Shown here piece after piece: positions 78 through 56,449 of a stretch of 63,712 nt of DNA. The position numbers and the translations under genes are program-made. Each line of letters starts with the position of its first letter. Position 1 is the first letter of the stretch. Below the pieces are notes generated by a model, which did no database searches, had not been told where the DNA came from, and was given only the letters and a program-made list of their open reading frames with translations. The DNA comes from Candidatus Scalinduaceae bacterium (GTDB taxonomy: Bacteria > Planctomycetota > Brocadiia > Brocadiales > Scalinduaceae). The stretch spans positions 1-63,712 of the forward strand of contig JBHICG010000012.1 of assembly GCA_046759445.1 (NCBI GenBank), read 5' to 3'.

Positions 78-886
78 TGGAAAGATTGCTTAGGATAGAT
101 AGGCGTTATATCTTTGTCTTTGTTGCACTGGCAGTAACCATACCATTGCTCATTAGGTTTAATTTGCCTGTGCCTGCGACTAGGGAAGTTAAGGGTATAT
201 ACGATAAGATTGATTCTCTCTCGGAGGGGGCACATGTACTTATAGCTTTTGATTTCGACCCGGCATCAAAGGAAGAACTTCTACCAATGGCGTTAGCGCT
301 GTTACATCACTGTTTTAAAAAGAATGTTAAGGTGGTAGGAATGACACTTAATCCCGGTGGTACTGGTCTGGCAGATAGCGCTATTGCGGATACCGGAAAG
401 CAATACGAAAAGGTAAATAAGGAAGATTATGTTTTCCTGGGTTATAAGACGGGGGTAGAGTTGGTTATGATAAATATGGGTGAAAATATTTATTCCGCTT
501 TTCCAAAGGACTTTTATGGTAATACAACAGTTGATTTGCCGGCACTTAAAGGAGTGCAGTCATTGACGGATTTTGATTATGTAATAGATCTGGCATCTGG
601 TGCAAGTATTGAGGCCTGGATTGCATTTGGAAAGGAAAAGTATGATTTTGAACTTGGCGCTGGTTGTACTGCCGTAATAGGCCCTGACATGTATCCATTC
701 TTGCAGGCTAAACAGATAAATGGTTTGATGAGTGGCCTTAAAGGTGCCGCTGAATATGAGACACTCATAAAGCGTAAGTCATCGGCCGTTGCCGGCATGT
801 CTCCACAAAGTGTGGTGCACGTAATTGTTGTATTGTTCGTGATATTCGGGAATTTTATATACTTTATGTCTGGACGAAAGAGATGA
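77..886 (+). CDS. Conserved hypothetical membrane-anchored protein
   Basis: 269 aa with N- and C-terminal hydrophobic helices; translationally coupled to both neighbours. Confidence 0.85.
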   Translation: MERLLRIDRRYIFVFVALAVTIPLLIRFNLPVPATREVKGIYDKIDSLSEGAHVLIAFDFDPASKEELLPMALALLHHCFKKNVKVVGMTLNPGGTGLADSAIADTGKQYEKVNKEDYVFLGYKTGVELVMINMGENIYSAFPKDFYGNTTVDLPALKGVQSLTDFDYVIDLASGASIEAWIAFGKEKYDFELGAGCTAVIGPDMYPFLQAKQINGLMSGLKGAAEYETLIKRKSSAVAGMSPQSVVHVIVVLFVIFGNFIYFMSGRKR

Positions 887-6755: not shown

Positions 6756-7436
6756 ATGAAAAGTAAAATAGATTGGTTTATACCTGGAGAAAAATTTTCT
6801 TTTCATCGTGAATGCTTGCTGCATTACGTATCAAGATTAGTAGAATGTTTGAAAAGTTATAGAAATGGAGATATGGATGCAGGTACTACTTTAAAAGCAT
6901 GTAAAAGTATACTCGCAGAAATCGATGACCCAGAGTTTCCTTTCTTCGCAGCAAAAAACTTTAGAGGGTTATTTTCATTTATATTATACGAACTCTCAAA
7001 AGTTCCACCTCGTCATCGAATGTTGACGCTCAAACCTGAAAAACAATATGAAGTGGGTTTTAGGAGGTTACCTATACATAGTGATGTAGAAAAAAGGAAA
7101 CATAAAAGAATAAAGAAACCGTATATAGTAAAGTTCCGACTTAGACCAAATGGAACTAAGGAAACGGTTTTCAATGATTGGGATGTGGTTGGAGTGAAAG
7201 ATTTGGGTGCTGGAGGTATGCTTTTAAATTGTAACAATAAATTGAGAATTGGTTCACTTCTAGATTTAAAGATAGGCCTTTCTACATCTATACCTCTCAT
7301 AAATTGTGTTGGGATAGTAATCCGCATTAAAAAACAAATCCATTCTTCTATATTTAATATAGCAATAGCATTTATGGAGATTGGTAGACAAGAAAAAGAA
7401 ATGATAAATAAAACCGCTGAAGGAATTTTAGGATAG
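6756..7436 (+). CDS. PilZ domain protein
   Basis: EKRKHKRI (RxxxR) and DLGAGG (D/NxS/GxxG-like) c-di-GMP motifs in the C-terminal half. Confidence 0.85.
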   Translation: MKSKIDWFIPGEKFSFHRECLLHYVSRLVECLKSYRNGDMDAGTTLKACKSILAEIDDPEFPFFAAKNFRGLFSFILYELSKVPPRHRMLTLKPEKQYEVGFRRLPIHSDVEKRKHKRIKKPYIVKFRLRPNGTKETVFNDWDVVGVKDLGAGGMLLNCNNKLRIGSLLDLKIGLSTSIPLINCVGIVIRIKKQIHSSIFNIAIAFMEIGRQEKEMINKTAEGILG

Positions 7437-14937: not shown

Positions 14938-14967
14938 TTGACAAACATCCATAATTACTAGTAGAAT
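14938..14967 (+). promoter_or_regulatory. Putative sigma70 promoter of the ECF sigma gene
   Basis: TTGACA-18 nt-TAGAAT, 48 nt upstream of the ATG. Confidence 0.55.
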
Positions 14968-15015: not shown

Positions 15016-15636
15016 ATGGACTTTGATAGGCTTTCCGAAAAAGAACTATTGAATGCATGTATTCAGGCAAATAAAGAAGCATGGGATGCATTTGTCGAAA
15101 GATTTACCAACCTAGTTTATCATACCATTAATAAAACACTCAAGACTTACTATGCAGATCATCTCTATCAGGATTTAGGTGATATTCATAACAACGTATT
15201 TATTTCCTTGATGGAAAACGACTATAAAAAATTGAGGCAGTATAAAGGTCTTAATGGTTGTACGGTCTCAAGCTGGCTCATGGTTGTTACAACTAATTTT
15301 ACTCTGAATTTTATTAAAAAACAAAAGCAACACATACCTATAGAAAACAATACCACAGACAATATGGATGTAATAGAAAGGGTTTCAAATCCTCAACAAC
15401 AGCCTGATGAAGAACTTTCAGAAAAAGAATATGGGGAAATTTTTAAAGACTTAATAAATGATTTAAATGTTAATGATGTGCTGTTTTTGAAACTATATTA
15501 TGAAAAGGAACTCCCGCCTGAAGAAATAGCCGAAATATTAAATCTAACAGTAAGTACCGTTTACAGTAAAAAGAACCGGATTAGAGAGAAGTTAAAAAAA
15601 ATCGCAAAAAAGAAAAATATATTGCAAGAAAATTGA
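15016..15636 (+). CDS. ECF-type sigma-70 factor
   Basis: Region 2 (AWDAFVERF..LVY; VF..L; SSWL..V) and region 4 (EEIAEILNLTVSTVYSKKNR). Confidence 0.92.
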   Translation: MDFDRLSEKELLNACIQANKEAWDAFVERFTNLVYHTINKTLKTYYADHLYQDLGDIHNNVFISLMENDYKKLRQYKGLNGCTVSSWLMVVTTNFTLNFIKKQKQHIPIENNTTDNMDVIERVSNPQQQPDEELSEKEYGEIFKDLINDLNVNDVLFLKLYYEKELPPEEIAEILNLTVSTVYSKKNRIREKLKKIAKKKNILQEN

Positions 15637-15713: not shown

Positions 15714-15782
15714 TGTCATTCCCGTGGCATATACCTACATAGTAGGCAAACAGGGAATCTGTTCCTGACTTTCGTCAGGACA
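15714..15782. repeat. REP-like element between sigma and anti-sigma genes
   Basis: tgtcattccc...gggaatc followed by hairpin tcctgac-tttc-gtcagga. Confidence 0.55.
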
Positions 15783-15837: not shown

Positions 15838-17952
15838 ATGGACAGAATTGATGATTTTTTAAAGTCTCTTTTAAATAAATCAAAAAAAGATAGGGGTTTC
15901 TTACAGGAGAAGGAATACACTTGCCCGTCCGAAGAAATCATTGCCTGTTATCTTGACAACTTACTTAATGATACTGAGAGAGAAAAAGTTGAAGAGCACC
16001 TTGCAAGATGTGAGGATTGTCTCCAACAGACCATATTGCTCCACAGTTTAAGAAAGGAAACAAAAGAGAATGGGTACATAGAGACGCCAGCAGAAGTAAC
16101 TGAACGGGCGAAAGAAATAGTTCCGGAAAGTTCTATAAAGGGCCTAATTGAGGTTATCATTGAATTTGCCCGTAATACTATAAGGGCCAAAAAGGGTTTT
16201 CGGTTAGTACCATATGGGTCTATTGCTCTAATTGCATTTTTATCAATAGGTGTTTACAGCATAATGTATACTAAAACTCCAACAGTACCTCATGATTATG
16301 ACACGTCCAAAACACGAGGCGCCTCTCCAACACAATTTGATGAACTAGTTAAACAATCAGAATTAGAACCACTTGCCCTCTCTATAAACATTATAGGCCA
16401 GAGGAAAGATACTGATGGAAGTGTTCACAAGGTCGCCATTGAAGAGGGAAGCATCCTTCAATCTAGAGATGAATTTAAGGTTCACTTTGAGACCAACAAA
16501 GATGCCTATGTATACATACTCATCCAAGATAGCTTAAACAAACCTAATCTGCTTTTTCCTGATCCTAATATTCTACTCAATAACAACGTAAAGGCAAATA
16601 CGAACTATACAGTTCCAGCATCAGATCAGTGGTTCTGGCTGGATGAAAATGTAGGGATTGAGATTATTTACATCTTAGCATCAGAAAGCCCGCTGGATAA
16701 TATTAAAGCCCTGCTCCTTGAGATGGAAGATGTGGATGAACCAGAAAAGATAGTCATGGAGTTTGTCAAAGGCAAGGATACTGTGGTAAGGGCAATCAGC
16801 TTCCGACATATAGATGGTAAAGCCTTTAAAGAAATCATTGCTATTAAGAATGTAGAGAAGAAAGCAGTAAACAAAGAGGAACCAGGTTCAGAACGTTTAA
16901 GAGAGTTAATTGTCAGGGGAGAAAATGCCATAAAAAACATACTGTCAAGCAGTATACCAAACACAGTTAATGAGGACAGAATAGAAACAACGCTGAATGA
17001 CATAAAGAAAAATCTTATACTTGAAGAAAGCAGAGGAGTTGGAGGTATAACAGTCTATAAAAAGGCTGCCCCCGCTGTAGTCCTTGTTGTAACCAATGAG
17101 GGGGAAGGTTCGGGTTCTATTCTGGATAGAGAAGGTCATGTTCTGACCAACTGGCATGTGGTGCAAGGGTATGATAGGGTAGCTGTTTTCTTCAAACCGA
17201 AAAAAGACATAGAATTAAAAGGAGAGCCGCTATATTTCGCCAAAGTTATCAAGGTGGATCAAGTAACCGATCTTGCTCTTTTAAAGATTGAAAACCCACC
17301 TGATAATCTTCCTATTCTGGAACTGGGTAATATAAATGATGTAGAAGTTGCTCAGGATGTCCATGCCATAGGTCACCCAGGAGGAGACATTTGGACCTAT
17401 ACCAAGGGAATAATCAGCCAGATAAGGCCGAACTATGAGTGGGCATATGATAACACGGTCTTACATGAAAGTAAGGTTATCCAGACCCAGACCCCAATCA
17501 ATCCAGGCAGCTCTGGTAGCCCACTCTTGAATGATAATGCTGAGATTATAGGAATAAACTCCTTTATAAAAAAAGGTGAGGGTCTAAACTTTGCCGTTTC
17601 TGTAGATGTGATAAGGGAATTCTTAGAAAGAAGAAATAGTCGTCTTGCTAGAAGACCTCCAACAACACCCCCAATAGCACATGTCTCTCAAAACCCATCT
17701 TATTATGAGTATGACACCAATCGAGATGGGATAGTAGATGTGATTGAGTATGATTCAGATGGAAATGGAATAGCCGATATGTATTTCGTAGACTTAAATC
17801 AAGATGGGATAATTGATCATGTTAAGATGGATCAAGATGGAAATGGTATAATCGACTTAGTTGTTTATGATACGAATAAAGACGGTAAGTATGATACATG
17901 GGCTTATGACACTGACGAAGACGGTAACATGGATGAATGGCTTGGTCGATAG
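15838..17952 (+). CDS. Zinc-finger (zf-HC2) anti-sigma factor fused to TM, DUF4384-like domain, trypsin-like serine protease and DxDxDG Ca-binding repeats
   Basis: HLARCEDC; TM GSIALIAFLSIGVYSIMY; FKVHFETNKDAYVYI..LLFP..WFWLDE..G.E; triad LTNWHVV / DLALL / INPGSSGSP; five DxN/DxDG repeats. Confidence 0.88.
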   Translation: MDRIDDFLKSLLNKSKKDRGFLQEKEYTCPSEEIIACYLDNLLNDTEREKVEEHLARCEDCLQQTILLHSLRKETKENGYIETPAEVTERAKEIVPESSIKGLIEVIIEFARNTIRAKKGFRLVPYGSIALIAFLSIGVYSIMYTKTPTVPHDYDTSKTRGASPTQFDELVKQSELEPLALSINIIGQRKDTDGSVHKVAIEEGSILQSRDEFKVHFETNKDAYVYILIQDSLNKPNLLFPDPNILLNNNVKANTNYTVPASDQWFWLDENVGIEIIYILASESPLDNIKALLLEMEDVDEPEKIVMEFVKGKDTVVRAISFRHIDGKAFKEIIAIKNVEKKAVNKEEPGSERLRELIVRGENAIKNILSSSIPNTVNEDRIETTLNDIKKNLILEESRGVGGITVYKKAAPAVVLVVTNEGEGSGSILDREGHVLTNWHVVQGYDRVAVFFKPKKDIELKGEPLYFAKVIKVDQVTDLALLKIENPPDNLPILELGNINDVEVAQDVHAIGHPGGDIWTYTKGIISQIRPNYEWAYDNTVLHESKVIQTQTPINPGSSGSPLLNDNAEIIGINSFIKKGEGLNFAVSVDVIREFLERRNSRLARRPPTTPPIAHVSQNPSYYEYDTNRDGIVDVIEYDSDGNGIADMYFVDLNQDGIIDHVKMDQDGNGIIDLVVYDTNKDGKYDTWAYDTDEDGNMDEWLGR

Positions 17953-17996
17953 TGATAATAAGGTAATAGTCTAATAATTAGAATCGTTAATACAAA

Positions 17997-20900
17997 ATGT
18001 CACTCTTACAAAACAAAAAACTATCACTTAATACTACACTTGCATTTCTATTAGTGGTCTTACTGAGTACCCATTCAAGGGTCTTTGCTGAGACTACAGA
18101 TATGAGAGAGATGGCTCAAACTCTATGGGAACAGGGTGTTGAAACTTTAGAGGCAATAGGCTTTTACATTAGATCAAATGAAAAGACTTTTCAAACAGCC
18201 CTGAAAAGTTTAAATGATTCTTTAAACCTTTACAGGGAAATAGGAGACCGTCAATCAGAGGCAGATCTTCTGACGTGTATAGCATGGATAGCTATTAATT
18301 CAAGCAAGTTTGTTGATGCACAAAATTATCTGAAAGAATCACAAGAAATCTATGCAGAATTAGGTAGCAAACCAGGAGAGAAAGCAGCTTTCGAGGATAT
18401 AGAGGATATAGATGAAAATATTATAATTCTAGAGCTTTATATCGAGGCCTCTAGTCATATAAATGACAAAGATTATGTAGCCGCCTTAAAAAAGTACAAT
18501 AATCTCCTCCAATTATACAGAGAGATGGGCGCTAGGACAAATGAGGCAGATATTCTATTATGGATTGGGTGGATTCAATTTAATTTAAGAAACTATATTG
18601 AGGCTGAACATTATTTCAATGATTCTTTAACCATTTATAGGGAAATAGGGGAAAGGCAACATGAGGCAGATATTCTATTATGGATTGGGAGGATTCAATT
18701 TAATTTGAAAAACTATACTGAGGCTGAACATTATTTCAATGATTCTTTAACCATTTATAGGGAGGTAGGAGATCGGCAATCAGAAGCTGTTATTCTGAAT
18801 TGGATTGGGAAAATTCAATATGATTTGAAAAACTATATGGAAGCTGAACATTATTATCGAGAGTCGCTGAGTATTTACAGGCAACGTGATAGAAAGATTG
18901 AACAGGGATTAATTTTTAAAGATATAGCAGCTTTATATTATGCTAAAGATGAGAATACAAAATCACTCAATTATATCAATGAGGCAATAAGGATGTTTGA
19001 ACAAACCAATGATAAAGAGTGGATGGCAAATGTCTTGGGATGGGCGGGGATTATTCATTGTAAACGTCAAGAATTTTCCATGGCATTGGACTATTTTAAA
19101 AAGTCATTATTACGATATCAAAAAATTAAGCACCAAGAAGGAGTAGCAGAAGTCTCTCAATGGATTATTAAAGCTGACAGTAGCCTGGGCTACTTCAATA
19201 TACCTATTAAATACTATAAGCAAGCTTTGAATATAATCCATGAAAAAGGAAATCTACGTGAGGAAGGTTCTATTATTCATACAATTGGAAAAATGTACAG
19301 CAATAGAGGAGATTACAAAGAAGCGTTGAAGGCCTATGATAAAGCAAAGCAAATCTTTAAAGAACTTAATGACATAACCAATCAGGGGAATATCCTTGTT
19401 AATATTGGGGAGGCAAATAGTAACCTGGGAAATTATCTTCAAGCTATTGATAACCTCAAGGAGGCTTTGGAGATCTTTGAAGGATTAAAGGATAATTCTG
19501 GTCAACAAGCTGCTTTGAATGCTCTCACTGATGTGTATATCCAATTAGGGGATTATGAAAGGGTTAAAGAATATAACTTGAAAAGCTTAAACATAGTTGG
19601 TGCCGACAAAGAAAATAAGTCGGTTAAACTTCTTTCTTTGTTATACCATGGACTGGCTTTTGAAAAAGAAGGAAGATTTGAGATGGCATTGGATGTCTAT
19701 CGCCAAGCCCTTGATCTCAGCAAAGAGATTGATGACAAAATAAGTGAAATGACTATTCTTAGTTATATAGGAAGAAGTTATTTCGAATTAGCGGAACTTT
19801 CAAAAGCATTGGAATTTTATAGGCAGATACTCAAGGCAAGCAGAGAACAAAAGAACAAAAATAATGAATTAGTTGCTTTAGTCGACATTGCGCAAACTTG
19901 CTTTAATCAAAATGACTTTCAGAGTAGCTTGGATTATTCTAAGCAAGCCTTGGTAATAGCTAAGGAAATAGGAAATAAGTTACTTGCGGCAAGATGTTAT
20001 TTCCAAATAGGATACACATACGTATACCAAAATAAACGTGAAAAAGCAGAAGAATATTTAGAAAAAGCCCTAATAATAGATAGGGAAATAGATAGGCCAG
20101 AAGATATCTGGACATCTAATTTTTGGCTTGGCATCAATGCGATGGAAATTAATTATCAAAAGGCTAAAAGATACTTTAGTGAGGCAATTAACAAAATTGA
20201 ATCTATAAGAGAAAAGATTTCTGTGGAAGAATACAAAACAAGTTTTATCGAGGATAAATTAGTAGTTTACAGTTTTATGATATTAACACTGTTACTACTT
20301 GAAGAGTTTGAAGAAGCATTTAATTATGTTGAAAGGGCAAAATCTAGATCACTCCTTGATTTGCTTGGAAATAGCGTAAAATTGGAAAAAGGTAAAGATA
20401 AAGACTTAAGCCAGGAAGAAAGAAGATTACAGAAGAAGATTAATGAGCTTTTAGAGAAGATACAGAAAGAACATTCCCAGCAAAATGAAAGACAGAGAAC
20501 GGTATTAAACGTATGGAACAAAGAACTGGAAAAGACAAGAAAGGAATATTCAGGACTACTTTTAAAAATAAGGCGGAAGAATCCTGAACTTTACTCTCTC
20601 GTAAACGTGAATCCTCTTACCCTCAAAGAAGTTCAAAATCTTTTGGAACCAGATACAACATTGTTAGAATACTTCTGTTTTTTAGGAGAAAAATACAGAT
20701 CAGAACTTGGATTCCCCATCCCTGATTCGATCTTTTATTGGGTTGTAAACAAAAAGGAATATAAATTTTATTTAATAGAAACTCCAAAGTTGGTTTCTAG
20801 AATAACCACATTTAAAGAAAAGATAGCCACCCTACAACCAGATTATGAGAAAGAGGCTGAAGAATTTTATGACCTCTTAATAAGACCTGCAAAACCATAT

Positions 20901-22088
20901 ATAAAGACAAAAAGAATCTGTATTGTTCCCCATTTCGTGCTCCACTATCTCCCATTTCAAGCGTTGTTAAATGTTCCTGAATTTGGTGGGCTTGGGATAG
21001 CAGTTGAGCTGAGGGATGGGATATTTACTGTAGCTTCTGTTCATGAAGGAATGCCTGCATATAAAGCAGGCCTTAAATCAGGGGACAAAATTATGGCAAT
21101 TGACGGAGATTCTACCATCAATATGTCATTTCAGGAGGCAGTTGTTAACAGGCTAAGAGGAAAACCCTCAACAACTGTTTCATTAACAATAGAAAGTGGA
21201 GAAACGAAGGCTCGGAAAACAATCAAAGTAAAAAGGGAGACCATTGCGAAATCAAGTATTTATTCAAAATTACCTGATGGCAATACAGAAGATTTAATGG
21301 CTAAAGCCGGAAATAAACCCAGATTTTTAATAGAGGAATACGATATATTTTATGTGCCAAGTGCTAGTGTTCTCAGATTTGTCCTGGAAAAAAGGAAAGA
21401 GGTTTCAGACAAAGTTCTTGCATTTGGAAATCCAGAGTTAGAAGATGAAGACCTCAACCTTCCTCATGCTGAAGAAGAAGTAAAGAAGATAAAAGCAAGT
21501 TATCCAGAAACTGACCTCTACCTGAATGAGAGGGCTACTGAGGAGAAAGCAAAACGATTGTCTGGTGACTATAACATCATCCATTTTGCCAGCCATGGTG
21601 AGCTTAATCCAAAATCTCCCCTATTTTCATGTATCAAGATGGCTAAAGAGAAGGATGAAGATGGGAGGCTTGAGGTACATGAAATCTTTAACCTTAACCT
21701 TGAAAATACATCTTTAGTAACTCTAAGCGCCTGTGAAACAGGATTGGGGCAACTAACAGGTGGAGATGAACTGATAGGCTTAACAAGGGGGTTCATCTAT
21801 GCGGGGACTCCATCTATAGTTGCCAGTCTATGGAGTGTTAACGATAAATCTACCTCAGAACTGATGGGACTCTTCTACAAAAACCTGAAAACTCATTCCA
21901 AAGCCGAAGCCCTCCGATTAGCACAGCTTGAGATGATAAATGGTGAAGTAGGCAAGGGAATTGTACGAGGAGTAGGGGGAATTACCATCTCAAAAGAAGA
22001 CAAAGACAAACCACAAACACAAATGACCGTCAATGGCTCTCATCCCTTCTTCTGGGCACCTTTTATTTTATTAGGGGATTGGAAGTAA
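17997..22088 (+). CDS. Exported TPR-CHAT (caspase-like, clan CD) protease with inserted PDZ domain
   Basis: Signal peptide ending VFA; long TPR array; ERAKSRSLLD; HFASHG and LSACETG dyad; ASLWSVND; HPFFWAPF; S41-type PDZ FGGLG..PAYKAGL..GDKI. Confidence 0.93.
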   Translation: MSLLQNKKLSLNTTLAFLLVVLLSTHSRVFAETTDMREMAQTLWEQGVETLEAIGFYIRSNEKTFQTALKSLNDSLNLYREIGDRQSEADLLTCIAWIAINSSKFVDAQNYLKESQEIYAELGSKPGEKAAFEDIEDIDENIIILELYIEASSHINDKDYVAALKKYNNLLQLYREMGARTNEADILLWIGWIQFNLRNYIEAEHYFNDSLTIYREIGERQHEADILLWIGRIQFNLKNYTEAEHYFNDSLTIYREVGDRQSEAVILNWIGKIQYDLKNYMEAEHYYRESLSIYRQRDRKIEQGLIFKDIAALYYAKDENTKSLNYINEAIRMFEQTNDKEWMANVLGWAGIIHCKRQEFSMALDYFKKSLLRYQKIKHQEGVAEVSQWIIKADSSLGYFNIPIKYYKQALNIIHEKGNLREEGSIIHTIGKMYSNRGDYKEALKAYDKAKQIFKELNDITNQGNILVNIGEANSNLGNYLQAIDNLKEALEIFEGLKDNSGQQAALNALTDVYIQLGDYERVKEYNLKSLNIVGADKENKSVKLLSLLYHGLAFEKEGRFEMALDVYRQALDLSKEIDDKISEMTILSYIGRSYFELAELSKALEFYRQILKASREQKNKNNELVALVDIAQTCFNQNDFQSSLDYSKQALVIAKEIGNKLLAARCYFQIGYTYVYQNKREKAEEYLEKALIIDREIDRPEDIWTSNFWLGINAMEINYQKAKRYFSEAINKIESIREKISVEEYKTSFIEDKLVVYSFMILTLLLLEEFEEAFNYVERAKSRSLLDLLGNSVKLEKGKDKDLSQEERRLQKKINELLEKIQKEHSQQNERQRTVLNVWNKELEKTRKEYSGLLLKIRRKNPELYSLVNVNPLTLKEVQNLLEPDTTLLEYFCFLGEKYRSELGFPIPDSIFYWVVNKKEYKFYLIETPKLVSRITTFKEKIATLQPDYEKEAEEFYDLLIRPAKPYIKTKRICIVPHFVLHYLPFQALLNVPEFGGLGIAVELRDGIFTVASVHEGMPAYKAGLKSGDKIMAIDGDSTINMSFQEAVVNRLRGKPSTTVSLTIESGETKARKTIKVKRETIAKSSIYSKLPDGNTEDLMAKAGNKPRFLIEEYDIFYVPSASVLRFVLEKRKEVSDKVLAFGNPELEDEDLNLPHAEEEVKKIKASYPETDLYLNERATEEKAKRLSGDYNIIHFASHGELNPKSPLFSCIKMAKEKDEDGRLEVHEIFNLNLENTSLVTLSACETGLGQLTGGDELIGLTRGFIYAGTPSIVASLWSVNDKSTSELMGLFYKNLKTHSKAEALRLAQLEMINGEVGKGIVRGVGGITISKEDKDKPQTQMTVNGSHPFFWAPFILLGDWK
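18541..18900 (+). repeat. Intragenic 120-bp tandem repeat (TPR unit x3)
   Basis: Units 18541-18660 and 18661-18780 match at 110/120 nt by manual count; third unit more diverged. Confidence 0.9.
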
Positions 22089-22112: not shown

Positions 22113-23039
22113 ATGAATACAGAATATATTGCAAACCTTGAAGTAAACAATTATGAAAATTATCTTCAATCCTTAAAAAGAGCCTGTAGTTGGGCTGGGA
22201 TTTCAAGAGGACGTGCTGTTACATATATAAAACTTGTCAGGGAGTTATTTGAAGCTGGTAAAGATTCTCGTGAGCATATTCTGGCCTATAATGAAAGTTG
22301 TGAGATTACTGATATCTTCGAGTTTTGGGAATCCCATGTTAGTCGCTTTCCTGGACTCAAAGGGAAGATTAAAAAATGTTTGGGAAAGGGAGCCACCCTT
22401 CGTGAGAACGAAAAGACTAATAAGTTTAATAGACCCAGAAATGATGCGTTTGCATTCCTCTTAGCAGGAAATCTCATGAGAGCCAATATAAAAGTTATAG
22501 CTGTGGATGGGATAGTTGAACAAGGAACAAGCTGTCATAAGGATGCAGATATTACTTTTGAATGGACTGAATCGGTTATTGATGTTGAGTGTAAAAGACC
22601 ACAAACAGATAAGGGTCTGGAAGAATGTGTGAAGAAAGCACTTCAACAACTTGCTAGACCAAGTCGACCAGGGCAGTTGGGAATTATTGCTATTGATTGT
22701 TCTGTACTCATTAGACCACCAGGAAAAGTTATTAATGTAAATTTTGATGAGCGTGCAGTGCAGCGTATTCACAATATTTTAGAAGTAAAAATAAAGCCAA
22801 AAGTTAATAAACAACTTGAGAGTAATATCCTGGGCTCTCTTCTCTTTGCAAGAGTACCAAGAATGACACCGACAAGAATATCTTCAATTCTGTCTCCACA
22901 AGGAAAGCTGTATATAGTCTTTAGACCAGAAAGTATAACTTCTATTTTGTGTATTAATAACCCAAATTCGTGTAATCCTGAAATATTCAGGTCTATATAT
23001 GAAAGCATCGGCATGGCCATAAACAACACTGCATCTTGA
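22113..23039 (+). CDS. Hypothetical protein with PD-(D/E)XK-like motif
   Basis: DADITF...IDVECKRP and GIIAIDCS; 24 bp downstream of the CHAT gene. Confidence 0.65.
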   Translation: MNTEYIANLEVNNYENYLQSLKRACSWAGISRGRAVTYIKLVRELFEAGKDSREHILAYNESCEITDIFEFWESHVSRFPGLKGKIKKCLGKGATLRENEKTNKFNRPRNDAFAFLLAGNLMRANIKVIAVDGIVEQGTSCHKDADITFEWTESVIDVECKRPQTDKGLEECVKKALQQLARPSRPGQLGIIAIDCSVLIRPPGKVINVNFDERAVQRIHNILEVKIKPKVNKQLESNILGSLLFARVPRMTPTRISSILSPQGKLYIVFRPESITSILCINNPNSCNPEIFRSIYESIGMAINNTAS

Positions 23040-26418: not shown

Positions 26419-29121
26419 CTATTCCACGATCACGATTAAATGATCGTCATTCTGAAATACCCTGGGCGCAAGCCTTTCCAGATCCTGAGGTGTAACCGCC
26501 TTTAGCTTTTCGCCATATTGGTCATCTGCTTCGGGTTCTTTACCGTCAAGTATCTCCATACTTATGTAGTATGCCTGACTCACACGATCCATACGACGCA
26601 TACCCCGACGGCCTAAGGTTGCGTTGATTGTTTTTTGAACTTCATCGACATCGAAAGATGCTTCCCGCATTAACTGGATTTCTTCTCGAATGCCGGAAAC
26701 AGCTTTTTCGATGTTTTCCGGTCTCGTCCCCATGGTAATACGATACCAGTGAGCATCCTTGTATTTTGGGAAGTGTGTGCCAATGGAATAGGCGAGTCCC
26801 TGTTGTTCACGAAGATTGAAGGCAAGTCTATCAGAAAATATACTACTGAGAATGTGCAGGGCAGGTTGGTCTTTCTCTTCAACGTCATAGGTATTTGCAA
26901 CGATAACGTATGACTGTGATTTGCCGATTTTCTGACGTACTGTTTTGCCAGGTTTCCTGAATTGGTACTTAAATACCGGCGGTTGCCATCCGGCTTCTCC
27001 CCATGTCTCACTAAAATTGGTTTTTACAAGCTCCATTACCTTGTCAATCGACAGATTACCGGAAATAGTCAGCACCAGGTTTGAGGGATTGTATAGCTTA
27101 TTATAAAATGCCTTTATTTCTTCAAGGCTAATATCCTCTATATCCTTTGCATTACCAAGCGTCCATCCAAATCCCGGGTTTGTAACAAATAGATTATCAT
27201 ACAGCATTCTACTGGCAACTTTAGGTGTACTTAAAGCAGTTGTGGTAGAAAGTGAGACGACCTTTTTTTTGGCTTGATCAAAAGCGTCCTCTGTAAGTAG
27301 AGGTTGGGATACCATTTCTGCAAGCAATCTGATGCCTTCCTCGAAAAAGAAATCTATTACCTTCAATCGCACGTAGACAAAGCGGACCGAATTGTAGTAA
27401 TCGTCATAGGGAATAGAAGGATTGTCGTGGAGTTTTAACTCCGCGCCAATGGATTCAAGTGCATGATACAATTTTTCCTTGGGATGATTAAGCGTTCCTC
27501 CCTCAAGCAGCATTCGCTGTAAAACCTCTCCCATACCCCACTTTTCCTTACCCTCACACAGACTTCGGCCTTTTGCTAACAGGTGTATTCCTACAACACG
27601 GCTGTCAGGGTTTTCTTTTATAACAACGGTCATACCATTTTCCAGTGTTTCCATGTGGTATTGATTTTGTGTTTCAACCCCGGTTGCTTCAGCCGGCTTA
27701 AGAGGTGGGGACATTAATGTGATTATGGGTAACGGGGATTTCAGATATTGTAACGCAGCGTCCTGAATTGATTTCGGTGTTGCCTTCATTATACTGTCCA
27801 TATAATCACGGAGAAAGGCATATCCACCGGCGGCAAGATAGCTCGATTTCATCATGGCATAGTAATGCAGTTTTTCCTGCAGATAAATTTCATGCGTGGC
27901 CCTTGCTATTAACATCTTTTGAATCTTGCTCATCTGCACAGGATTAAGTGCCATGTCTCGTACGGCGTGTGTAATCAAATCGATAATGCGATCAACATCG
28001 GTATTTAAGGGAAGTTCTGCTAAAATTTGCAGCGTTGAAAAATCACTATTAAATGTTATGTTTGCATTGATTGAATTAACCAGGTTTTTATTGGAATCCT
28101 GTTTGAACAAGACGTCCAGGACTGAGTCCTTTTTGCCACCAAGGAACTCGGCCAGCAGTTGTAATGAAAAGAAATCCTCAGATGCAGGCGCCGGTAATAT
28201 GTAACCCATATTAAGATATTGGCGATCGGCAGGAAATTTTCCCATACCATTTGTCCGGACAACCCGCAGTGTTTTCGGCGGTATCAGCAAGATAGGTTTG
28301 TGTTCCGGCAGAGGACCGGCAGGATATGGTCCATACTTCTTCTTAACCAATTCTACCATTTCCGGGGTTGTGAAATCACCGATGACCATCAATGTCATAT
28401 TGTTGGGCACATACCAGGTGTGATAATATGCTTGTACATCATCACGCTTTAGATGAGAAATCGTGGAAACAGTTCCGAGCACGGGCCGCTCATAAGACGT
28501 GCCGGAGTATAAAACCCGTAAGAAATGATTGTGAACCTGATGTGTTGGATAGTCTGCACCTTTGCCAATCTCTTCAATAACGATGCCCCGTTCTTTTTCA
28601 AATTTTTCAGGAGGTAGAGTGGAGTTGAAAAGCATGTCTGCCTGGATGTCCATCCCCTGTTCAATATACTCCTTCGGCATCAGTATCATGAAGTTGGTGT
28701 AATCGGGTCCTGTGTGTGCATTATTATAACCGCCATAATAATCCATTTCGTCATAGAGCTCCTTCTGTGTGCGGTTTTTCGTACCATTAAAGAGCAGATG
28801 TTCAAGAAAATGTGCGGATCCGTTTGTTGATGCGTCTTCATTGCGACTACCGGCCTTGACGATTGTAAATGCCGTAATCATGGGACTGGCATGATTTTCT
28901 ATGAGAATAACCTCCATCCCGTTGTCAAGATAGAAGACCGAGTCCTTTTGAGTTTTACCAAACAATGACAAAGCCTGATCTTCTAAATCATCAGCACCAA
29001 ACACAAAGTAACTCATTCCAAAAAGGAAAACGTGCATTATGAGGATGTTTAAGGCAATTCTTTTCATTTTTCTTTGGAAGCCTTCAAATTTTAATAATCC
29101 AAGCCTGCTCATATTTTTCAT
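26419..29121 (-). CDS. M16 family zinc peptidase (tandem domains)
   Basis: Inverted zinc motif HFLEH.LFNGT; second half lacks HxxEH; LRE.QGLAY. Confidence 0.92.
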   Translation of the reverse strand: MKNMSRLGLLKFEGFQRKMKRIALNILIMHVFLFGMSYFVFGADDLEDQALSLFGKTQKDSVFYLDNGMEVILIENHASPMITAFTIVKAGSRNEDASTNGSAHFLEHLLFNGTKNRTQKELYDEMDYYGGYNNAHTGPDYTNFMILMPKEYIEQGMDIQADMLFNSTLPPEKFEKERGIVIEEIGKGADYPTHQVHNHFLRVLYSGTSYERPVLGTVSTISHLKRDDVQAYYHTWYVPNNMTLMVIGDFTTPEMVELVKKKYGPYPAGPLPEHKPILLIPPKTLRVVRTNGMGKFPADRQYLNMGYILPAPASEDFFSLQLLAEFLGGKKDSVLDVLFKQDSNKNLVNSINANITFNSDFSTLQILAELPLNTDVDRIIDLITHAVRDMALNPVQMSKIQKMLIARATHEIYLQEKLHYYAMMKSSYLAAGGYAFLRDYMDSIMKATPKSIQDAALQYLKSPLPIITLMSPPLKPAEATGVETQNQYHMETLENGMTVVIKENPDSRVVGIHLLAKGRSLCEGKEKWGMGEVLQRMLLEGGTLNHPKEKLYHALESIGAELKLHDNPSIPYDDYYNSVRFVYVRLKVIDFFFEEGIRLLAEMVSQPLLTEDAFDQAKKKVVSLSTTTALSTPKVASRMLYDNLFVTNPGFGWTLGNAKDIEDISLEEIKAFYNKLYNPSNLVLTISGNLSIDKVMELVKTNFSETWGEAGWQPPVFKYQFRKPGKTVRQKIGKSQSYVIVANTYDVEEKDQPALHILSSIFSDRLAFNLREQQGLAYSIGTHFPKYKDAHWYRITMGTRPENIEKAVSGIREEIQLMREASFDVDEVQKTINATLGRRGMRRMDRVSQAYYISMEILDGKEPEADDQYGEKLKAVTPQDLERLAPRVFQNDDHLIVIVE

Positions 29122-54337: not shown

Positions 54338-56449
54338 TTATTTTATAATGATCCTTGCATCAACAACCTTACATCCTTTACCTTTATTGAAAACTCTTAA
54401 TGGGTTAATATCCAGTTCTAATATGCTTTCAAAATCGATAACTAACTGAGATATCCTTTCCAGACATTTGGCTATTGCATCAATGTCAGATGGTTTTTCA
54501 CCCCTCACACCTTCAAGTATCTTATATGCACGTATTGACTTTATCATCCTTATTGCGCTGAGAGAGCGAATCGGGGCCAGCCTGAATGTGACATCCCTTA
54601 TTGCTTCTACATAAATACCTCCCAGGCCGAACATAAGCAAAGGTCCGAATTGAACGTCTCTATTCATGCCGATAATAGCCTCTTTGCCGCCTTCAATCAT
54701 CTTCTGCACGGTCATACCCTTAATCTTTGCATCAGGTTTATGTGATTTCACGTTAGCCACAATTTTTCTGTATGAACTAATCAACTCATTTTTGTTCTTT
54801 AAATCTAGTCTTACACCTCCAACATCAAACTTATGCAATATGTCAGGAGACGCTACTTTTGCTACTACCGGGTACCCAAACCTCTCGGCGGCAATTGCAG
54901 CATCATCTTCATTGGTAGCAAGGATGGAATCAACAACAGGAAGTCCATATGCCTTAAACACACTTAAGGCTTCTTGTTCAAAGAGAAATGACCTTTTCTC
55001 GTTCTTAACTTTGTTGATTATCCTGGATACTGCTTTCTTATTTACTTTAAATTTTCTCACTCTGGTTCTTGGCCGTTCTGTCCACCACGAATACTCATAC
55101 ATATTTGAGAGTGCCCTTGCAGTTACTTCTGGAAAGCTATAGTGTGGAATATTATTTTCCTCCAGTATCATTATGCCCTCACTTACATCAAACAGACCCA
55201 TAAAGCAGCATAGTACAGGTTTATCATATTTTGCTGAAGTGGTTGCGATTACCTTTGCAATCTCTTTTATATCCGTAACGGCCGCCGGAGTAAGGATTAC
55301 GATTACGCCGTCTATATTTGAATCCTTTAATATGCTGTCCAGGGCAATTCCGTATCTATCACTGGTGGCGTCTCCAAGGACGTCCACAGGGTTGTTGGTA
55401 TTTGCAGCGGGGGGTAATTTTGCCTTAAGCTTCTTTGTTGTGTTTTTCTGGAATGCAGGTAATTCGAGATTGTATTTCACACATGCATCAGTCGTTATTA
55501 TTCCGGGGCCACCCGCATTTGTTATTATGGCCATTCTTCTACCTTTAGGAAGCGGTTGTTTGGCAAAGGCTTTCCCATAGCTGAATAGTTCCTCCATTGT
55601 CTCTACCCTCAATACTCCGCATTGCGCAAAGATTGCATTGTAAACATCGTCACTGCCGGAAAGTGAACCCGTGTGTGAAGAGGCGGCTCTTGCGCCCTGA
55701 GGTGTACGGCCAGATTTTATAGCCAATATTGGTTTTCTTGACGTTATTTTTCTGGCAATATTTATAAACTCCCTTCCGTTTACTAGATCCTCTATATACA
55801 TAAGAATAACGTCTGTATTTGGATCTTTCTCCAACATTGATAATAAATCATTTTCCATAATATCGGCCTTATTGCCCATGCTGACAAACTTGGAGAAACC
55901 AATATACTCACTTTTTGCATAGTCCAGGATAGCCGCACAAAGAGCGCCACTTTGTGAAATAAACGCAATATTTCCCTTTTTAGGTATAGTCCTAGAAAAA
56001 GTTGCATTGAGAGATATGTCTGAAGAAGTATTAATTATCCCAAAACAATTTGGACCAATTAAAGACATAGAATATCTGTTTGCAATCTCTTTTACTTTTC
56101 TCTCAAGTATTATCCCCTCTCCGCCTATCTCCTTAAATCCAGCGCTTATAATGACAATAACCTTTACGCCTTTAAGCCCGCACTCCTTAATAACTCCAGG
56201 CACAAAATCTCTGGGTACTATGATAATTGCCATATCGACGCTGTCAGGTATTTCCATAATGCTGGAATAACATTTAACACCGATTATGCCCTTTGACTTG
56301 GGATTAACCGGATACATAATACCATTGTATTTATTAAGCAGGATATTGGAAAATATGGAGCGACCCACTGTTCCATCCCTTGTTGAAGCTCCAATTACGG
56401 CAATGGATTTTGGTGAAAAGGCATATTCTAATTGTTTCATCTTGTCCAT
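54338..56449 (-). CDS. ADP-forming acyl-CoA synthetase, fused alpha/beta (AcdAB-like)
   Basis: PKSIAVIGAS, GPNC.G, SQSGA, SHTGS phospho-His, TNAGGPG, NPVD; ATP-grasp HK.DVGGV, DINP. Confidence 0.92.
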   Translation of the reverse strand: MDKMKQLEYAFSPKSIAVIGASTRDGTVGRSIFSNILLNKYNGIMYPVNPKSKGIIGVKCYSSIMEIPDSVDMAIIIVPRDFVPGVIKECGLKGVKVIVIISAGFKEIGGEGIILERKVKEIANRYSMSLIGPNCFGIINTSSDISLNATFSRTIPKKGNIAFISQSGALCAAILDYAKSEYIGFSKFVSMGNKADIMENDLLSMLEKDPNTDVILMYIEDLVNGREFINIARKITSRKPILAIKSGRTPQGARAASSHTGSLSGSDDVYNAIFAQCGVLRVETMEELFSYGKAFAKQPLPKGRRMAIITNAGGPGIITTDACVKYNLELPAFQKNTTKKLKAKLPPAANTNNPVDVLGDATSDRYGIALDSILKDSNIDGVIVILTPAAVTDIKEIAKVIATTSAKYDKPVLCCFMGLFDVSEGIMILEENNIPHYSFPEVTARALSNMYEYSWWTERPRTRVRKFKVNKKAVSRIINKVKNEKRSFLFEQEALSVFKAYGLPVVDSILATNEDDAAIAAERFGYPVVAKVASPDILHKFDVGGVRLDLKNKNELISSYRKIVANVKSHKPDAKIKGMTVQKMIEGGKEAIIGMNRDVQFGPLLMFGLGGIYVEAIRDVTFRLAPIRSLSAIRMIKSIRAYKILEGVRGEKPSDIDAIAKCLERISQLVIDFESILELDINPLRVFNKGKGCKVVDARIIIK

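What the first reader, a model, noticed from the sequence alone, without database searches (positions are those of the whole stretch)
17032..21986. Shared RGVGGIT peptide in both proteases: a putative common cleavage/activation site
Seen: RGVGGIT occurs at 17032-17052 (residues 399-405, just before the trypsin domain, context EESR-GVGGIT) and at 21966-21986 (residues 1324-1330, in an insertion near the CHAT C-terminus, IVR-GVGGIT). The DNA differs at all seven codons (aga gga gtt gga ggt ata aca vs cga gga gta ggg gga att acc), so the match is at protein level. The fusion has further RG sites at its domain borders: TRG (159-161, after the TM) and IVRG (358-361, after DUF4384), the latter also matching the CHAT loop. 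Known: the CHAT relative separase cuts after Arg in ExxR, and chymotrypsin-family zymogens activate at R-IVGG. Inference: R|G is the CHAT site, used for self-processing or autoinhibition and for segmenting the anti-sigma fusion.
Basis: partly seen in the sequence, partly recalled or inferred. Interest (0 to 1): 0.85.

Follow-up and report, generated by a model that had tools for sequence, protein, structure and literature searches.

The report
Shared Arg-Gly motif links two proteases
A short peptide shared by a secreted caspase-like protease and the membrane anti-sigma factor encoded next to it recurs in related gene pairs from several bacterial phyla, which makes it a good candidate for the site where the protease cuts its partner and itself.

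Summary
RGVGGIT sits at both stated positions. One detail is off: 6 of 7 codons differ, not all 7.

Within the window the match is only mildly unlikely (14 of 3000 shuffles). Comparison with relatives makes it decisive:
- 116 of 120 TPR-CHAT relatives carry RG[VI]GG in the same C-terminal insertion.
- 95 of 99 DUF4384-bearing relatives of the anti-sigma fusion carry the motif outside the membrane.
- The two gene families sit side by side in Scalindua-like, Nitrospirota, Binatia and Syntrophobacter DNA.
- An Acidobacteriota clade shares a different variant instead. The partner has RGLGL (120 of 120) and the protease has RGLGI twice (3 of 3 loci).

Both window copies lie in low-confidence, unstructured segments of the models. 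The CHAT His-Cys dyad is intact.

Best reading (0.55): this is the recognition and cleavage motif, cut after Arg, of a secreted TPR-PDZ-CHAT protease. The protease would act on the anti-sigma/DUF4384/HtrA-like fusion and carry its own copy as a self-cleavage or pseudosubstrate loop.

No cleavage is shown. The extra TRG and IVRG sites are conserved only within the Scalindua lineage. I found no paper describing the motif. The closest analogues are Csx29-Csx30-RpoE and DdvA.

The parts
14938..14967 (+). sigma-70-like promoter match upstream of the sigma gene (TTGACA-18-TAGAAT)
   Evidence: 11 of 12 matches. This is a consensus match only.
15016..15636 (+). ECF-type sigma factor (P0003, 206 aa)
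   Evidence: TIGR02937 scores 82.4 bits against a cut-off of 42.9. Sigma70_r4_2 also matches.
15838..17952 (+). P0001: anti-sigma (zf-HC2) / TM / DUF4384 / HtrA-like serine protease / Asp-rich repeats fusion, 704 aa
15940..16020 (+). zf-HC2 anti-sigma zinc-binding motif (residues 35-61, HLARCEDC)
   Evidence: PF13490 scores 28.5 bits against a cut-off of 22.2.
16198..16275 (+). single hydrophobic transmembrane segment (about residues 121-146)
   Evidence: Kyte-Doolittle window 121-139 averages 1.72. The model has a helix at 126-140.
16312..16320 (+). TRG (159-161), juxtamembrane; conserved only within the Scalindua lineage
   Evidence: TRG in 12 of 14 Scalindua-type rows and absent from the Nitrospirota fusions. 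The segment is low-confidence in the model.
16465..16692 (+). DUF4384 domain (residues 210-285)
   Evidence: PF14326 scores 49 bits against a cut-off of 27. The model shows a beta-rich fold at 181-325 with pLDDT about 80-90.
16909..16920 (+). IVRG (358-361); lineage-restricted and inside a predicted helix
   Evidence: helix 352-371
17032..17052 (+). RGVGGIT copy 1 (residues 399-405), in the linker just before the protease domain
   Evidence: RG is present in 27 of 28 aligned rows and RGVGG in 19 of 28. In the model, residues 390-402 have pLDDT below 50 and no secondary structure.
17107..17556 (+). Trypsin_2 / HtrA-like serine protease domain (residues 424-573) with triad H440, D478, S559
   Evidence: PF13365 scores 95.3 bits. 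H440, D478 and S559 are invariant in A1.
17695..17949 (+). C-terminal Asp/Gly-rich repeats (about residues 620-704)
   Evidence: Visible in the sequence. The model has seven short strands about 13 residues apart.
17997..22088 (+). P0002: signal-peptide-like N-terminus / TPR array / split CHAT with inserted PDZ, 1363 aa
17997..18089 (+). signal-peptide-like N-terminus (residues 1-31, ...LAFLLVVLLSTHSRVFA|E)
   Evidence: Read by eye; no predictor was run. Orthologous TPR-CHATs in L002-L004 have hydrophobic or lipobox N-termini.
18438..20084 (+). TPR repeat region (residues about 148-696)
   Evidence: TPR_12 scores 212 bits with 7 stretches, plus other TPR models.
20589..20972 (+). N-terminal half of the CHAT domain (residues about 865-992)
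   Evidence: Conserved block in A2/A3. Well-folded in the model.
20985..21227 (+). PDZ domain inserted in the CHAT domain (residues 997-1077)
   Evidence: PDZ_2 scores 41.2 bits. It is an insertion relative to L002/L003 and other CHATs.
21309..22079 (+). catalytic half of the CHAT domain (residues 1105-1361); H1200 at 21594-21596 and C1246 at 21732-21734
   Evidence: PF12770 scores 210.7 bits. H1200 and C1246 are invariant. In one search they align with the H of LLCHGE and the C of GACES in Csx29; one search gives the Csx29 dyad as H615/C658. Foldseek's best matches are Craspase Csx29 chains, 5e-10.
21942..22037 (+). clade-specific insertion loop (residues about 1316-1347) between the last helix and the last strand
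   Evidence: Absent from most CHAT relatives. Fragment residues 466-487 have pLDDT below 50 and no secondary structure.
21966..21986 (+). RGVGGIT copy 2 (residues 1324-1330)
   Evidence: 116 of 120 relatives carry RG[VAITLS]GG at the same place.
22113..23039 (+). P0004, 308 aa, 24 bp downstream; no family match; membership of the system unknown
   Evidence: No Pfam or NCBIfam hit. Not followed up.

Best explanation
The window carries a three-gene signalling module from a Scalindua-like (anammox planctomycete) genome.

Components:
- An ECF sigma factor.
- A single-pass anti-sigma factor. Its outer part is DUF4384, then a linker, then an HtrA-like serine protease.
- A secreted TPR-PDZ-CHAT caspase-like cysteine protease.

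Proposal: RG[VI]GG[IV] is the short linear motif that this CHAT protease clade recognises, and most likely cuts after the Arg.

Proposed sequence of events (all steps inferred):
1. At rest, the protease's own copy sits in a flexible loop inserted between the last helix and last strand of the caspase fold. By recalled caspase topology this is the position of active-site loop L4. The copy occupies the active site as a pseudosubstrate, or is auto-cleaved during maturation.
2. A signal sensed through the TPR or PDZ parts frees the site.
3. The CHAT cuts P0001 at R399|G400 in the disordered linker. This releases, and perhaps activates, the HtrA-like domain.
4. Removal of the bulky ectodomain opens the way for further trimming and intramembrane (RseP-type) cleavage. 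The sigma factor is then released.

What is shown: the motif, its conservation, its co-occurrence with the gene pair, the matching outside-the-membrane topology, the low-confidence unstructured context, and the intact catalytic residues.
For: 1. CHAT side. 116 of 120 TPR-CHAT relatives (identity down to about 51%) have RG[VAITLS]GG 40-47 residues from the C-terminus. Among the best 150 representatives at 50% identity, 29 have the motif, all within ranks 1-51. Lower ranks mostly lack the insertion altogether.

2. Partner side. 95 of 99 DUF4384-bearing relatives of P0001 carry RG[VIA]GG[IVLM]. It lies either before the trypsin domain (LILEESRGVGGIT) or about 35 residues after DUF4384 ((E/Q)RGVGGITKG). 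Most Nitrospirota CHAT-DUF4384-trypsin fusions carry both copies.

3. Gene linkage.
- In 78 genome loci found with the CHAT profile, only L001-L004 have the loop motif. L002 and L003 have a neighbouring DUF4384 protein with the motif, and L004 has a neighbouring ORF with the tail motif.
- In the other 74 loci neither the CHAT nor any DUF4384 neighbour has it. There are seven chance-type hits in six loci, six of them RG[AI]GG and one a sirtuin-like YRGVGGLY by my recollection.
- All 14 protein pairs that share a contig length carry the motif in both members.

4. Independent variant. In three Pyrinomonadaceae/Acidobacteriota loci (L042, L045, L051), the secreted DUF4384 partner has RG[LIF]GL about 30 residues from its end. 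The TPR-CHAT has RGLG[IV] twice, in two other insertions. Of 120 relatives of that partner, 120 keep RG[LIVF]GL. The relaxed motif occurs in 6 of 14 DUF4384-like ORFs, against 57 of 2965 other ORFs.

5. Topology. The partners all follow the plan [cytoplasmic anti-sigma, CHAT or cyclase-CHAT] - TM - DUF4384 - motif. The TPR-CHATs have signal-peptide or lipobox N-termini. Reader and motifs would therefore meet outside the membrane. The CHAT is the only protease present in all systems; L003, L042, L045 and L051 have no trypsin domain.

6. Accessibility. Both window copies lie in segments with pLDDT below 50 and no secondary structure.

7. Enzyme. H1200 and C1246 are invariant, and they align with the H and C of the Csx29 catalytic motifs (dyad named). 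The best fold matches are Craspase Csx29, then SAVED-CHAT, DdvA, caspases and MALT1.

8. Precedent.
- Csx29 cuts Csx30, which binds RpoE, and some Csx30 C-terminal domains are DUF4384 (bioRxiv 10.1101/2022.08.17.504292, passages read).
- DdvA's periplasmic TPR-CHAT is proposed as a site-1 protease of an anti-sigma factor (PMC11506125, sections 8 and 9 and passages).
- Separases cut after Arg (same paper).
Against: - No cleavage product, mass or N-terminus is available. Everything about cutting is inference.
- The conserved residues lie after the Arg (G-V/I-G-G-I/V). The positions before it differ by context: EES, GIV, LAR, IVQ. That pattern fits a binding epitope or a tight turn at least as well as a scissile site.
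- The characterised TPR-CHAT, Csx29, cuts after Met or Leu, not Arg.
- No residue near the active site distinguishes motif-bearing CHATs from loop-less relatives. Only the loop itself does.
- Residue-level co-variation is mixed. One pair has Ile at +2 in both proteins (P0039/P0129). L003 and L004 pair RGIGGV in the CHAT with RGVGGI in the partner.
- Anti-sigma-trypsin proteins without DUF4384 keep LExTRG but not VGGIT. Part of the pre-trypsin motif may therefore have a CHAT-independent role.
- Model confidence is moderate (mean pLDDT 68.6 and 68.7). 'Disordered' rests on low confidence only.
- P0002's export is judged by eye.
Confidence: 0.55

Rival explanations
1. Docking motif without cleavage. 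RG[VI]GG[IV] would be a binding epitope, for example a beta-hairpin or added strand, read by the TPR array, the PDZ domain or DUF4384 itself. The protease's own copy and the partner's copy would compete for the same pocket. This would tether or gate the protease, while the actual cut falls elsewhere or not at all.
For: - Conservation is concentrated on G-V/I-G-G-I/V after the Arg, with hydrophobic residues on both sides. That is typical of a turn or strand epitope.
- TPR is present in all the proteases, and DUF4384 in all full-length partners.
- No active-site residue is specific to the clade.
Against: - The invariant residue is Arg (116 of 116, 33 of 33 and 78 of 78 in the three contexts, partly by construction of the search; R1324 is invariant in A2 even in rows with degenerate loops).
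- Arg is a common P1 residue among caspase-like proteases. Metacaspases cut after Arg or Lys and separase after Arg; the rest of this point is recalled.
- All copies lie in low-confidence loops rather than packed elements.
- In the Acidobacteriota clade the copies sit in three different insertions of different context. That is easier to explain for a portable substrate site.
Confidence: 0.2
2. The Arg-Gly bond would be cut by the HtrA/trypsin-like domain of P0001, as self-maturation and attack on the CHAT loop, and not by the CHAT.
For: - The pre-trypsin copy lines up with the R|IVGG activation site of the Pfam Trypsin profile (the same holds in P0044).
- LExxRG before the protease domain is kept even in anti-sigma-trypsin proteins that lack DUF4384 and VGGIT.
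- The triad is intact.
Against: - Systems with the motif in both partners but no trypsin domain within the fetched flanks exist: L003, L042, L045, L051. Most CHAT-DUF4384 proteins also lack one.
- The domain is HtrA-like (Trypsin_2; NCBIfam HtrA models give the best partial hits).
- It lacks the Asp before the catalytic Ser that the classical mechanism needs (PGSSGSP; consensus PGNSGGP).
Confidence: 0.08
3. No common reader. The copies would be independently conserved glycine-rich turns, and their likeness would come from convergence or ancient recombination without present function.
For: - Within the window alone the match is only moderately unlikely, and another shared 7-mer exists.
- Residue-level co-variation is weak.
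Against: - Presence and absence track each other across loci.
- A second clade shares a different variant between the same two gene families.
- The motif occurs in at least five unrelated sequence contexts.
Confidence: 0.07

Closest known systems
Type III-E CRISPR Craspase module: Csx29 (TPR-CHAT) - Csx30 - RpoE/CASP-sigma
   Same: - A TPR-CHAT protease cuts a protein that holds an ECF-type sigma factor.
- Some Csx30 C-terminal domains are DUF4384, and the cut lies in an exposed hairpin (10.1101/2022.08.17.504292, passages).
- Csx29 chains are the best sequence and fold matches of P0002's CHAT.
   Different: - Craspase is cytoplasmic, RNA-activated and bound to Cas7-11. No such protein family matched any window ORF of at least 120 aa.
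- Csx29 cuts after Met or Leu.
- No matching motif in the protease itself is mentioned in the passages read.
- P0164 scores 65.6 bits against a cut-off of 300 for the Csx29 model, and P0002 does not hit it.
- Here the system is extracytoplasmic and the substrate is a transmembrane zf-HC2 anti-sigma factor.
DdvA-DdvS of Myxococcus xanthus (anti-sigma fused to a periplasmic TPR-CHAT)
   Same: - A zinc-binding anti-sigma factor, a single TM segment and a periplasmic TPR-CHAT.
- The CHAT is proposed as site-1 protease ahead of RseP (PMC11506125, abstract, sections 8-9 and discussion passages).
- DdvA is among the fold matches.
   Different: - In DdvA the CHAT is fused to the anti-sigma factor, lacks three helices at the active site, and no cleavage site is known.
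- Here the CHAT is a separate secreted protein.
- The anti-sigma factor instead carries DUF4384 and a serine protease.
- A candidate site is marked by a motif shared with the protease.
DegS-RseA-RseP regulated proteolysis of sigma-E (recalled; the general scheme is also described in PMC11506125)
   Same: - A periplasmic PDZ-bearing site-1 protease cuts a single-pass anti-sigma factor.
- Intramembrane cleavage then releases an ECF sigma factor.
   Different: - The site-1 protease would be a cysteine CHAT, not DegS.
- The HtrA-like domain is part of the substrate.
- No site-2 protease gene lies in the window.
Separase (auto-cleavage and pseudosubstrate inhibition by securin)
   Same: - A CHAT-related caspase-like protease that cuts after Arg in (S/D/E)xExxR and is held by a substrate-like inhibitor (as summarised in PMC11506125).
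- The pre-trypsin copy reads E-E-S-R.
   Different: - Peptidase_C50 scores only 15.6 bits against 27.8.
- ExxR is absent from the CHAT loop and from the post-DUF4384 copies.
- Here the conserved part lies after the Arg.
SAVED-CHAT to PCaspase cascade (type III-B)
   Same: A CHAT protease cuts and activates a second protease, which in turn acts on a sigma-factor-related protein (10.1101/2023.06.23.546230, abstract and passages).
   Different: - That cascade is cytoplasmic and triggered by cyclic oligoadenylate.
- The second protease is a caspase, not HtrA-like.
- No shared motif is reported in the passages read.
Chymotrypsin-family zymogen activation (R15|I16-V-G-G; recalled)
   Same: R399|G-V-G-G aligns with positions 1-4 of the Pfam Trypsin profile.
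   Different: - The domain is HtrA-like.
- The residue before the catalytic Ser is Ser/Asn, not Asp.
- The same motif also occurs where no trypsin domain follows.

Membership tests
CHAT domain / caspase-like cysteine protease (PF12770) | profile match above Pfam's gathering score | tested here: met
   210.7 bits against a cut-off of 24, residues 1105-1361.
CHAT domain / caspase-like cysteine protease (PF12770) | His-Cys catalytic dyad | tested here: met
   H1200 and C1246 are invariant in 26 sequences. In one search they align with the H of LLCHGE and the C of GACES in Csx29; one search names the Csx29 dyad H615/C658.
CHAT domain / caspase-like cysteine protease (PF12770) | caspase-like fold | tested here: met
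   Foldseek finds Craspase Csx29 at 5e-10, and also caspases, MALT1 and separase. The model's mean pLDDT is 68.6.
Craspase Csx29 (NF041237) | score above NCBIfam cut-off; association with Cas7-11 | tested here: not met
   P0002 is not listed. P0164 scores 65.6 bits against 300. No Cas-related Pfam family matched the window ORFs.
Separase (Peptidase_C50) | profile match above cut-off | tested here: not met
   15.6 bits against 27.8.
Separase-type site | ExxR before the scissile bond | tested here: inconclusive
   Present in the pre-trypsin copy (LEESR; E at -3 in 33 of 33). Absent from the CHAT-loop and post-DUF4384 copies.
HtrA/DegP (S1C) serine protease | Trypsin_2 match and His-Asp-Ser triad | tested here: met
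   95.3 bits against 27.6. H440, D478 and S559 are invariant.
HtrA/DegP (S1C) serine protease | equivalog-level match and C-terminal PDZ | tested here: not met
   The best NCBIfam match scores 119.3 bits against 450. P0001 has no PDZ.
Chymotrypsin-type zymogen | activation bond directly before the (I)VGG N-terminus | tested here: met
   PF00089 aligns from residue 401 at profile position 2.
Chymotrypsin-type zymogen | Asp before the catalytic Ser, to pair with the new N-terminus (recalled feature) | tested here: not met
   P0001 reads PGSSGSP and the family consensus reads PGNSGGP.
ZAS-type anti-sigma factor (zf-HC2) | profile match and H-x3-C-x2-C | tested here: met
   28.5 bits against 22.2, residues 35-61. 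HLARCEDC is in the sequence.
ECF sigma factor | TIGR02937 above cut-off | tested here: met
   82.4 bits against 42.9.
Regulated intramembrane proteolysis of an anti-sigma factor | site-1 cut in the ectodomain followed by a site-2 (M50) protease | not testable with these tools
   No M50 family hit among the window ORFs. The rest of the genome was not seen, and cleavage needs experiment.
DUF4384 | profile match above cut-off | tested here: met
   49 bits against 27.

The most novel reading that the evidence does not exclude
A widespread, undescribed class of secreted TPR-CHAT 'site-1' caspase-like proteases signals across the membrane by cutting DUF4384-bearing single-pass proteins. The inner parts of those proteins are anti-sigma factors, second CHAT proteases or nucleotide cyclases. 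Each clade writes its own cleavage code: R|GVGGI in Scalindua, Nitrospirota, Binatia and Syntrophobacter, and R|GLGL in Acidobacteriota. The code is written both into the substrate and, as a built-in pseudosubstrate or auto-processing loop, into the protease. The cytoplasmic Csx29-Csx30-RpoE module of type III-E CRISPR would be a recruited offshoot of this older envelope system.
Probability: 0.3. Interest if true: 0.85.

Novelty: new variant of a known kind. Interest (0 to 1): 0.72.

Why it matters
Bacterial CHAT proteases are very numerous. There are 112,035 cluster representatives at E up to 0.001. Substrates and cleavage sites are known for only a few CRISPR-linked ones.

[quoted passage not shown] It says its proposed CHAT-based site-1 role cannot yet be tested because the signal and the site are unknown.

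Here sequence comparison alone nominates three things:
- an exact peptide bond (R399|G400) in the substrate;
- a matching loop (R1324|G1325) in the protease;
- a second clade with a different shared variant.

This gives a directly testable substrate code, a candidate autoinhibition mechanism, and a possible evolutionary source for the Craspase accessory module. It also gives DUF4384, a domain with no assigned function, a concrete context as the ectodomain of CHAT-controlled membrane proteins.

Tried and rejected
- **Complex prediction.** I submitted P0002 860-1363 with P0001 150-440, using my own alignments. The verdict was 'no answer' (score 0.11, mark 0.32). It counts neither for nor against binding. 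The queue was full or the job was not sent.
- **Matched peptides in other clades.** I looked for other CHAT insertion loops (L025, L029, L031, L036, L074) matched by a peptide in a neighbouring ORF. I found only scattered 4-mers, which is uninformative.
- **Clade-specific active-site residues.** I compared 60 of the 134 motif-bearing CHATs (the first 35 plus 25 drawn at random) with 81 without the motif. Only the loop columns and a few conservative positions differ, so there is no clue to an Arg pocket.
- **Curated names.** NCBIfam has none for P0001, P0002 or P0004. P0004 has no Pfam hit.
- **Literature.**
  - 'RGVGG' anywhere: 11 papers, none relevant by title. The one I opened was a PCR primer.
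  - 'CHAT domain' with DUF4384: 1 paper.
  - DUF4384 alone: 7 papers.
  - TPR-CHAT with periplasmic: 1 paper.
  - 'CHAT domain' with pseudosubstrate: 0 papers.
  - Supplements were not opened. Table S7 of PMC11506125 (DdvA-like proteins) and figs S13-S14 of the Kato preprint (Csx30 C-terminal groups) could bear on novelty.
- **Not checked.**
  - The gene neighbours of the metagenome-derived exceptions. These are P0140, P0148, P0155 and P0174 on the CHAT side, and P0035, P0037 and P0055 on the partner side.

Full report
**1. The observation**

Both stretches translate to RGVGGIT. They lie at residues 399-405 of P0001 (15838-17952, 704 aa) and residues 1324-1330 of P0002 (17997-22088, 1363 aa). 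The DNA copies share 15 of 21 bases and differ at 6 of 7 codons, not at all 7.

RGVGGIT is the only 7-mer the two proteins share. A shared 7-mer arose in 14 of 3000 shuffles. Among the 43 window ORFs of at least 120 aa one other shared 7-mer exists. The window alone therefore gives only modest significance.

**2. The genes**

- P0003 (15016-15636) is an ECF sigma factor.
- P0001 has the following parts:
  - a zf-HC2 anti-sigma motif;
  - one hydrophobic segment at about residues 121-146;
  - DUF4384 at 210-285;
  - a linker;
  - an HtrA-like Trypsin_2 domain at 424-573, with H440, D478 and S559;
  - Asp-rich repeats at the C-terminus.
- P0002 has a signal-peptide-like start (judged by eye), a long TPR array, and a CHAT domain split by a PDZ insertion. 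H1200 and C1246 are invariant. They align with the H and C of the Csx29 catalytic motifs (the dyad is named). Its model best matches Craspase Csx29 chains, followed by SAVED-CHAT, DdvA, caspases, MALT1 and separase.
- The gaps between genes are 44 and 24 bp, which suggests an operon. P0004 downstream has no family match.
- The rest of the window holds ordinary chromosomal genes.
- The closest relatives carry source names Candidatus Scalindua rubra and Scalinduaceae.

**3. The motif in relatives of the CHAT protein**

- Of 120 relatives found with residues 1090-1363, 116 carry RG[VAITLS]GG 40-47 residues from the C-terminus. It reads either IVRGVGGIT or ARRG[VI]GG[IV]GKLGE. The four exceptions keep the Arg but have degenerate loops.
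- In an exhaustive search of 1.84 billion cluster representatives, 29 of the best 150 have the motif, all within ranks 1-51. Beyond that the insertion is mostly missing.
- A local alignment shows the loop as an insertion between the last helix and the last strand.

**4. The motif in relatives of P0001**

- Of 99 DUF4384-bearing hits, 95 carry RG[VIA]GG[IVLM]. Three contexts occur:
  - Scalindua-type anti-sigma fusions have it before the trypsin domain.
  - CHAT-TM-DUF4384 proteins, some with an added nucleotide cyclase, have it about 35 residues after DUF4384 and about 43 from the end.
  - Nitrospirota CHAT-TM-DUF4384-trypsin fusions mostly have both copies.
- P0001 lacks a 38-residue segment that holds the post-DUF4384 copy in the fusions.
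- Anti-sigma-trypsin proteins without DUF4384 keep LExTRG but not VGGIT.

**5. Linkage of the two gene families**

- A profile scan of one genome per species returned 78 loci. Only L001-L004 have the loop motif.
- L002 (Thermodesulfovibrionia) and L003 (Binatia) share one operon plan:
  - an ECF sigma factor;
  - a soluble zf-HC2 anti-sigma factor;
  - a (cyclase-)CHAT-DUF4384(-trypsin) protein with the motif;
  - one or two TPR-CHATs with the motif.
- L004 (Syntrophobacter) has two TPR-CHATs with the motif and a downstream ORF with the tail motif. My DUF4384 profile did not detect that ORF.
- L001 is too short to show neighbours.
- In the other 74 loci the strict motif is absent from the CHATs and from DUF4384 neighbours. 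There are seven unrelated hits in six loci.
- All 14 protein pairs that share a contig length have the motif in both members.

**6. A second, variant pair**

My DUF4384 profile found neighbours in further loci. In L042, L045 and L051 (Pyrinomonadaceae/Acidobacteriota):

- The secreted 305-aa partner ends with (S/T/A)RG[LIF]GL...DDP.
- The TPR-CHAT carries RGLG[IV] twice, in two insertions that other CHATs lack.
- All 120 relatives of that partner keep RG[LIVF]GL. In addition, 118 of 120 have DVRGAF right after the signal peptide.

So the principle 'same Arg-Gly motif in protease and DUF4384 partner' recurs with a different sequence and at different positions. This is the closest thing to co-variation I could obtain. 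Residue-level co-variation within the RGVGG clade is mixed.

**7. Topology and accessibility**

- Partners have a hydrophobic segment between the cytoplasmic module and DUF4384. The L003 partner was not flagged at my threshold. TPR-CHATs start with signal-peptide or lipobox-like sequences.
- In the models, the P0002 loop (fragment residues 466-487) and the P0001 linker (390-402) have pLDDT below 50 and no secondary structure.
- IVRG358 lies in a predicted helix. TRG160 lies in a low-confidence juxtamembrane stretch and is conserved only in Scalindua-type proteins.

**8. Mechanism**

The only protease common to all systems and located outside the membrane is the TPR-CHAT. I therefore take the motif as its recognition and cleavage site, with Arg before the cut. 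Arg-specific cleavage by separase and metacaspases is cited; the wider statement about the clan is recalled.

The protease's own copy sits, by recalled caspase topology, where active-site loop L4 lies. It could serve as a pseudosubstrate or as an auto-processing site.

Cutting P0001 at R399 would detach the HtrA-like domain. The new end, GVGG..., corresponds to the start of the Trypsin profile. The Asp needed for classical zymogen activation is absent. Loss of the ectodomain could permit RseP-type cleavage and sigma release, as proposed for DdvA. All of these steps are inferred.

Rivals are a docking epitope without cleavage, cleavage by the trypsin-like domain, and unrelated turns.

**9. Comparison and novelty**

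- The closest systems are Csx29-Csx30-RpoE, where some Csx30 C-terminal domains are DUF4384, and DdvA.
- P0002 is a CHAT protein. It does not meet the Csx29 or separase models.
- None of the full-text searches found the motif or this gene pair described. Supplements were not read.
- I rate it a new variant of a known kind: caspase-like control of sigma/anti-sigma pairs, with an unreported and testable substrate code.

**10. Limits**

- There is no experimental evidence.
- Model confidence is moderate.
- The complex prediction gave no verdict.
- Contexts of the metagenome-only exceptions were not seen.

Noticed in passing
L042:6853-7767, L045:6809-7729, L051:6175-7089 and P0382-P0501: The Acidobacteriota DUF4384 partners carry a second conserved Arg-Gly peptide, DVRGAF, directly after the signal peptide (118 of 120). 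This is in addition to the C-terminal RGLGL.
   Followed up: partly
L002:3195-3902 and L003:3620-4375: In Nitrospirota and Binatia the zf-HC2 anti-sigma factor is a separate protein of 236 or 252 aa, with no strongly hydrophobic segment. It lies next to a membrane protein whose cytoplasmic part is a CHAT domain. This hints at a two-protease relay across the membrane.
   Followed up: partly
P0160 (881 aa): This TPR-CHAT begins MQRGVGGITEGQ..., which is the tail of a DUF4384 partner, and also has the usual loop copy. It is either a natural fusion of the neighbouring genes or a gene-call artefact.
   Followed up: no
window 18500-18900 (P0002 residues about 170-300): Near-identical TPR units of about 40 residues repeat in tandem (YFNDSLTIYRE...EAEH). 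Promoter-like matches recur about every 120 bases. This indicates recent internal duplication.
   Followed up: no
window 15763-15780: A terminator-like hairpin followed by a T-run lies between the sigma gene and the anti-sigma gene. It could lower read-through into the protease genes.
   Followed up: no
window 17695-17949 (P0001 residues about 620-704): Asp/Gly/Asn-rich repeats (DxDxDG-like) follow the protease domain and are modelled as seven short strands about 13 residues apart. They resemble calcium-binding repeats by my recollection; Pfam gave no match at E up to 0.01.
   Followed up: no
L018:6963-9446, L060:7494-11447, L025:7527-10799, L013:7068-9407 with L013:9473-10315: Other TPR-CHATs carry Arg-Gly peptides in their own insertions (VRGLRLAK, TRGLEDR, RLRGFGAPV, KRGIEIK). 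The DUF4384 neighbour in L013 has TRGIKIVG, which resembles the loops of P0259 and P0270 (ERGIKLV, ARGIKLV). The numbers are too small to judge.
   Followed up: partly
window 54338-56449 and 56582-58729, minus strand: Two adjacent paralogous genes share the same five-domain CoA-ligase / ATP-grasp architecture.
   Followed up: no
window 62320-63447 and 26422-29121, minus strand: The citrate synthase ORF and the M16 peptidase ORF share the 7-mer LDGKEPE. This is probably chance, and it serves as a caution about single shared 7-mers.
   Followed up: no
window 6756-7436 and P0035: A PilZ-domain ORF lies about 8 kb upstream. One P0001 relative, P0035, has a PilZ domain fused in place of the anti-sigma part and a degenerate motif, KRASGIT.
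   Followed up: no
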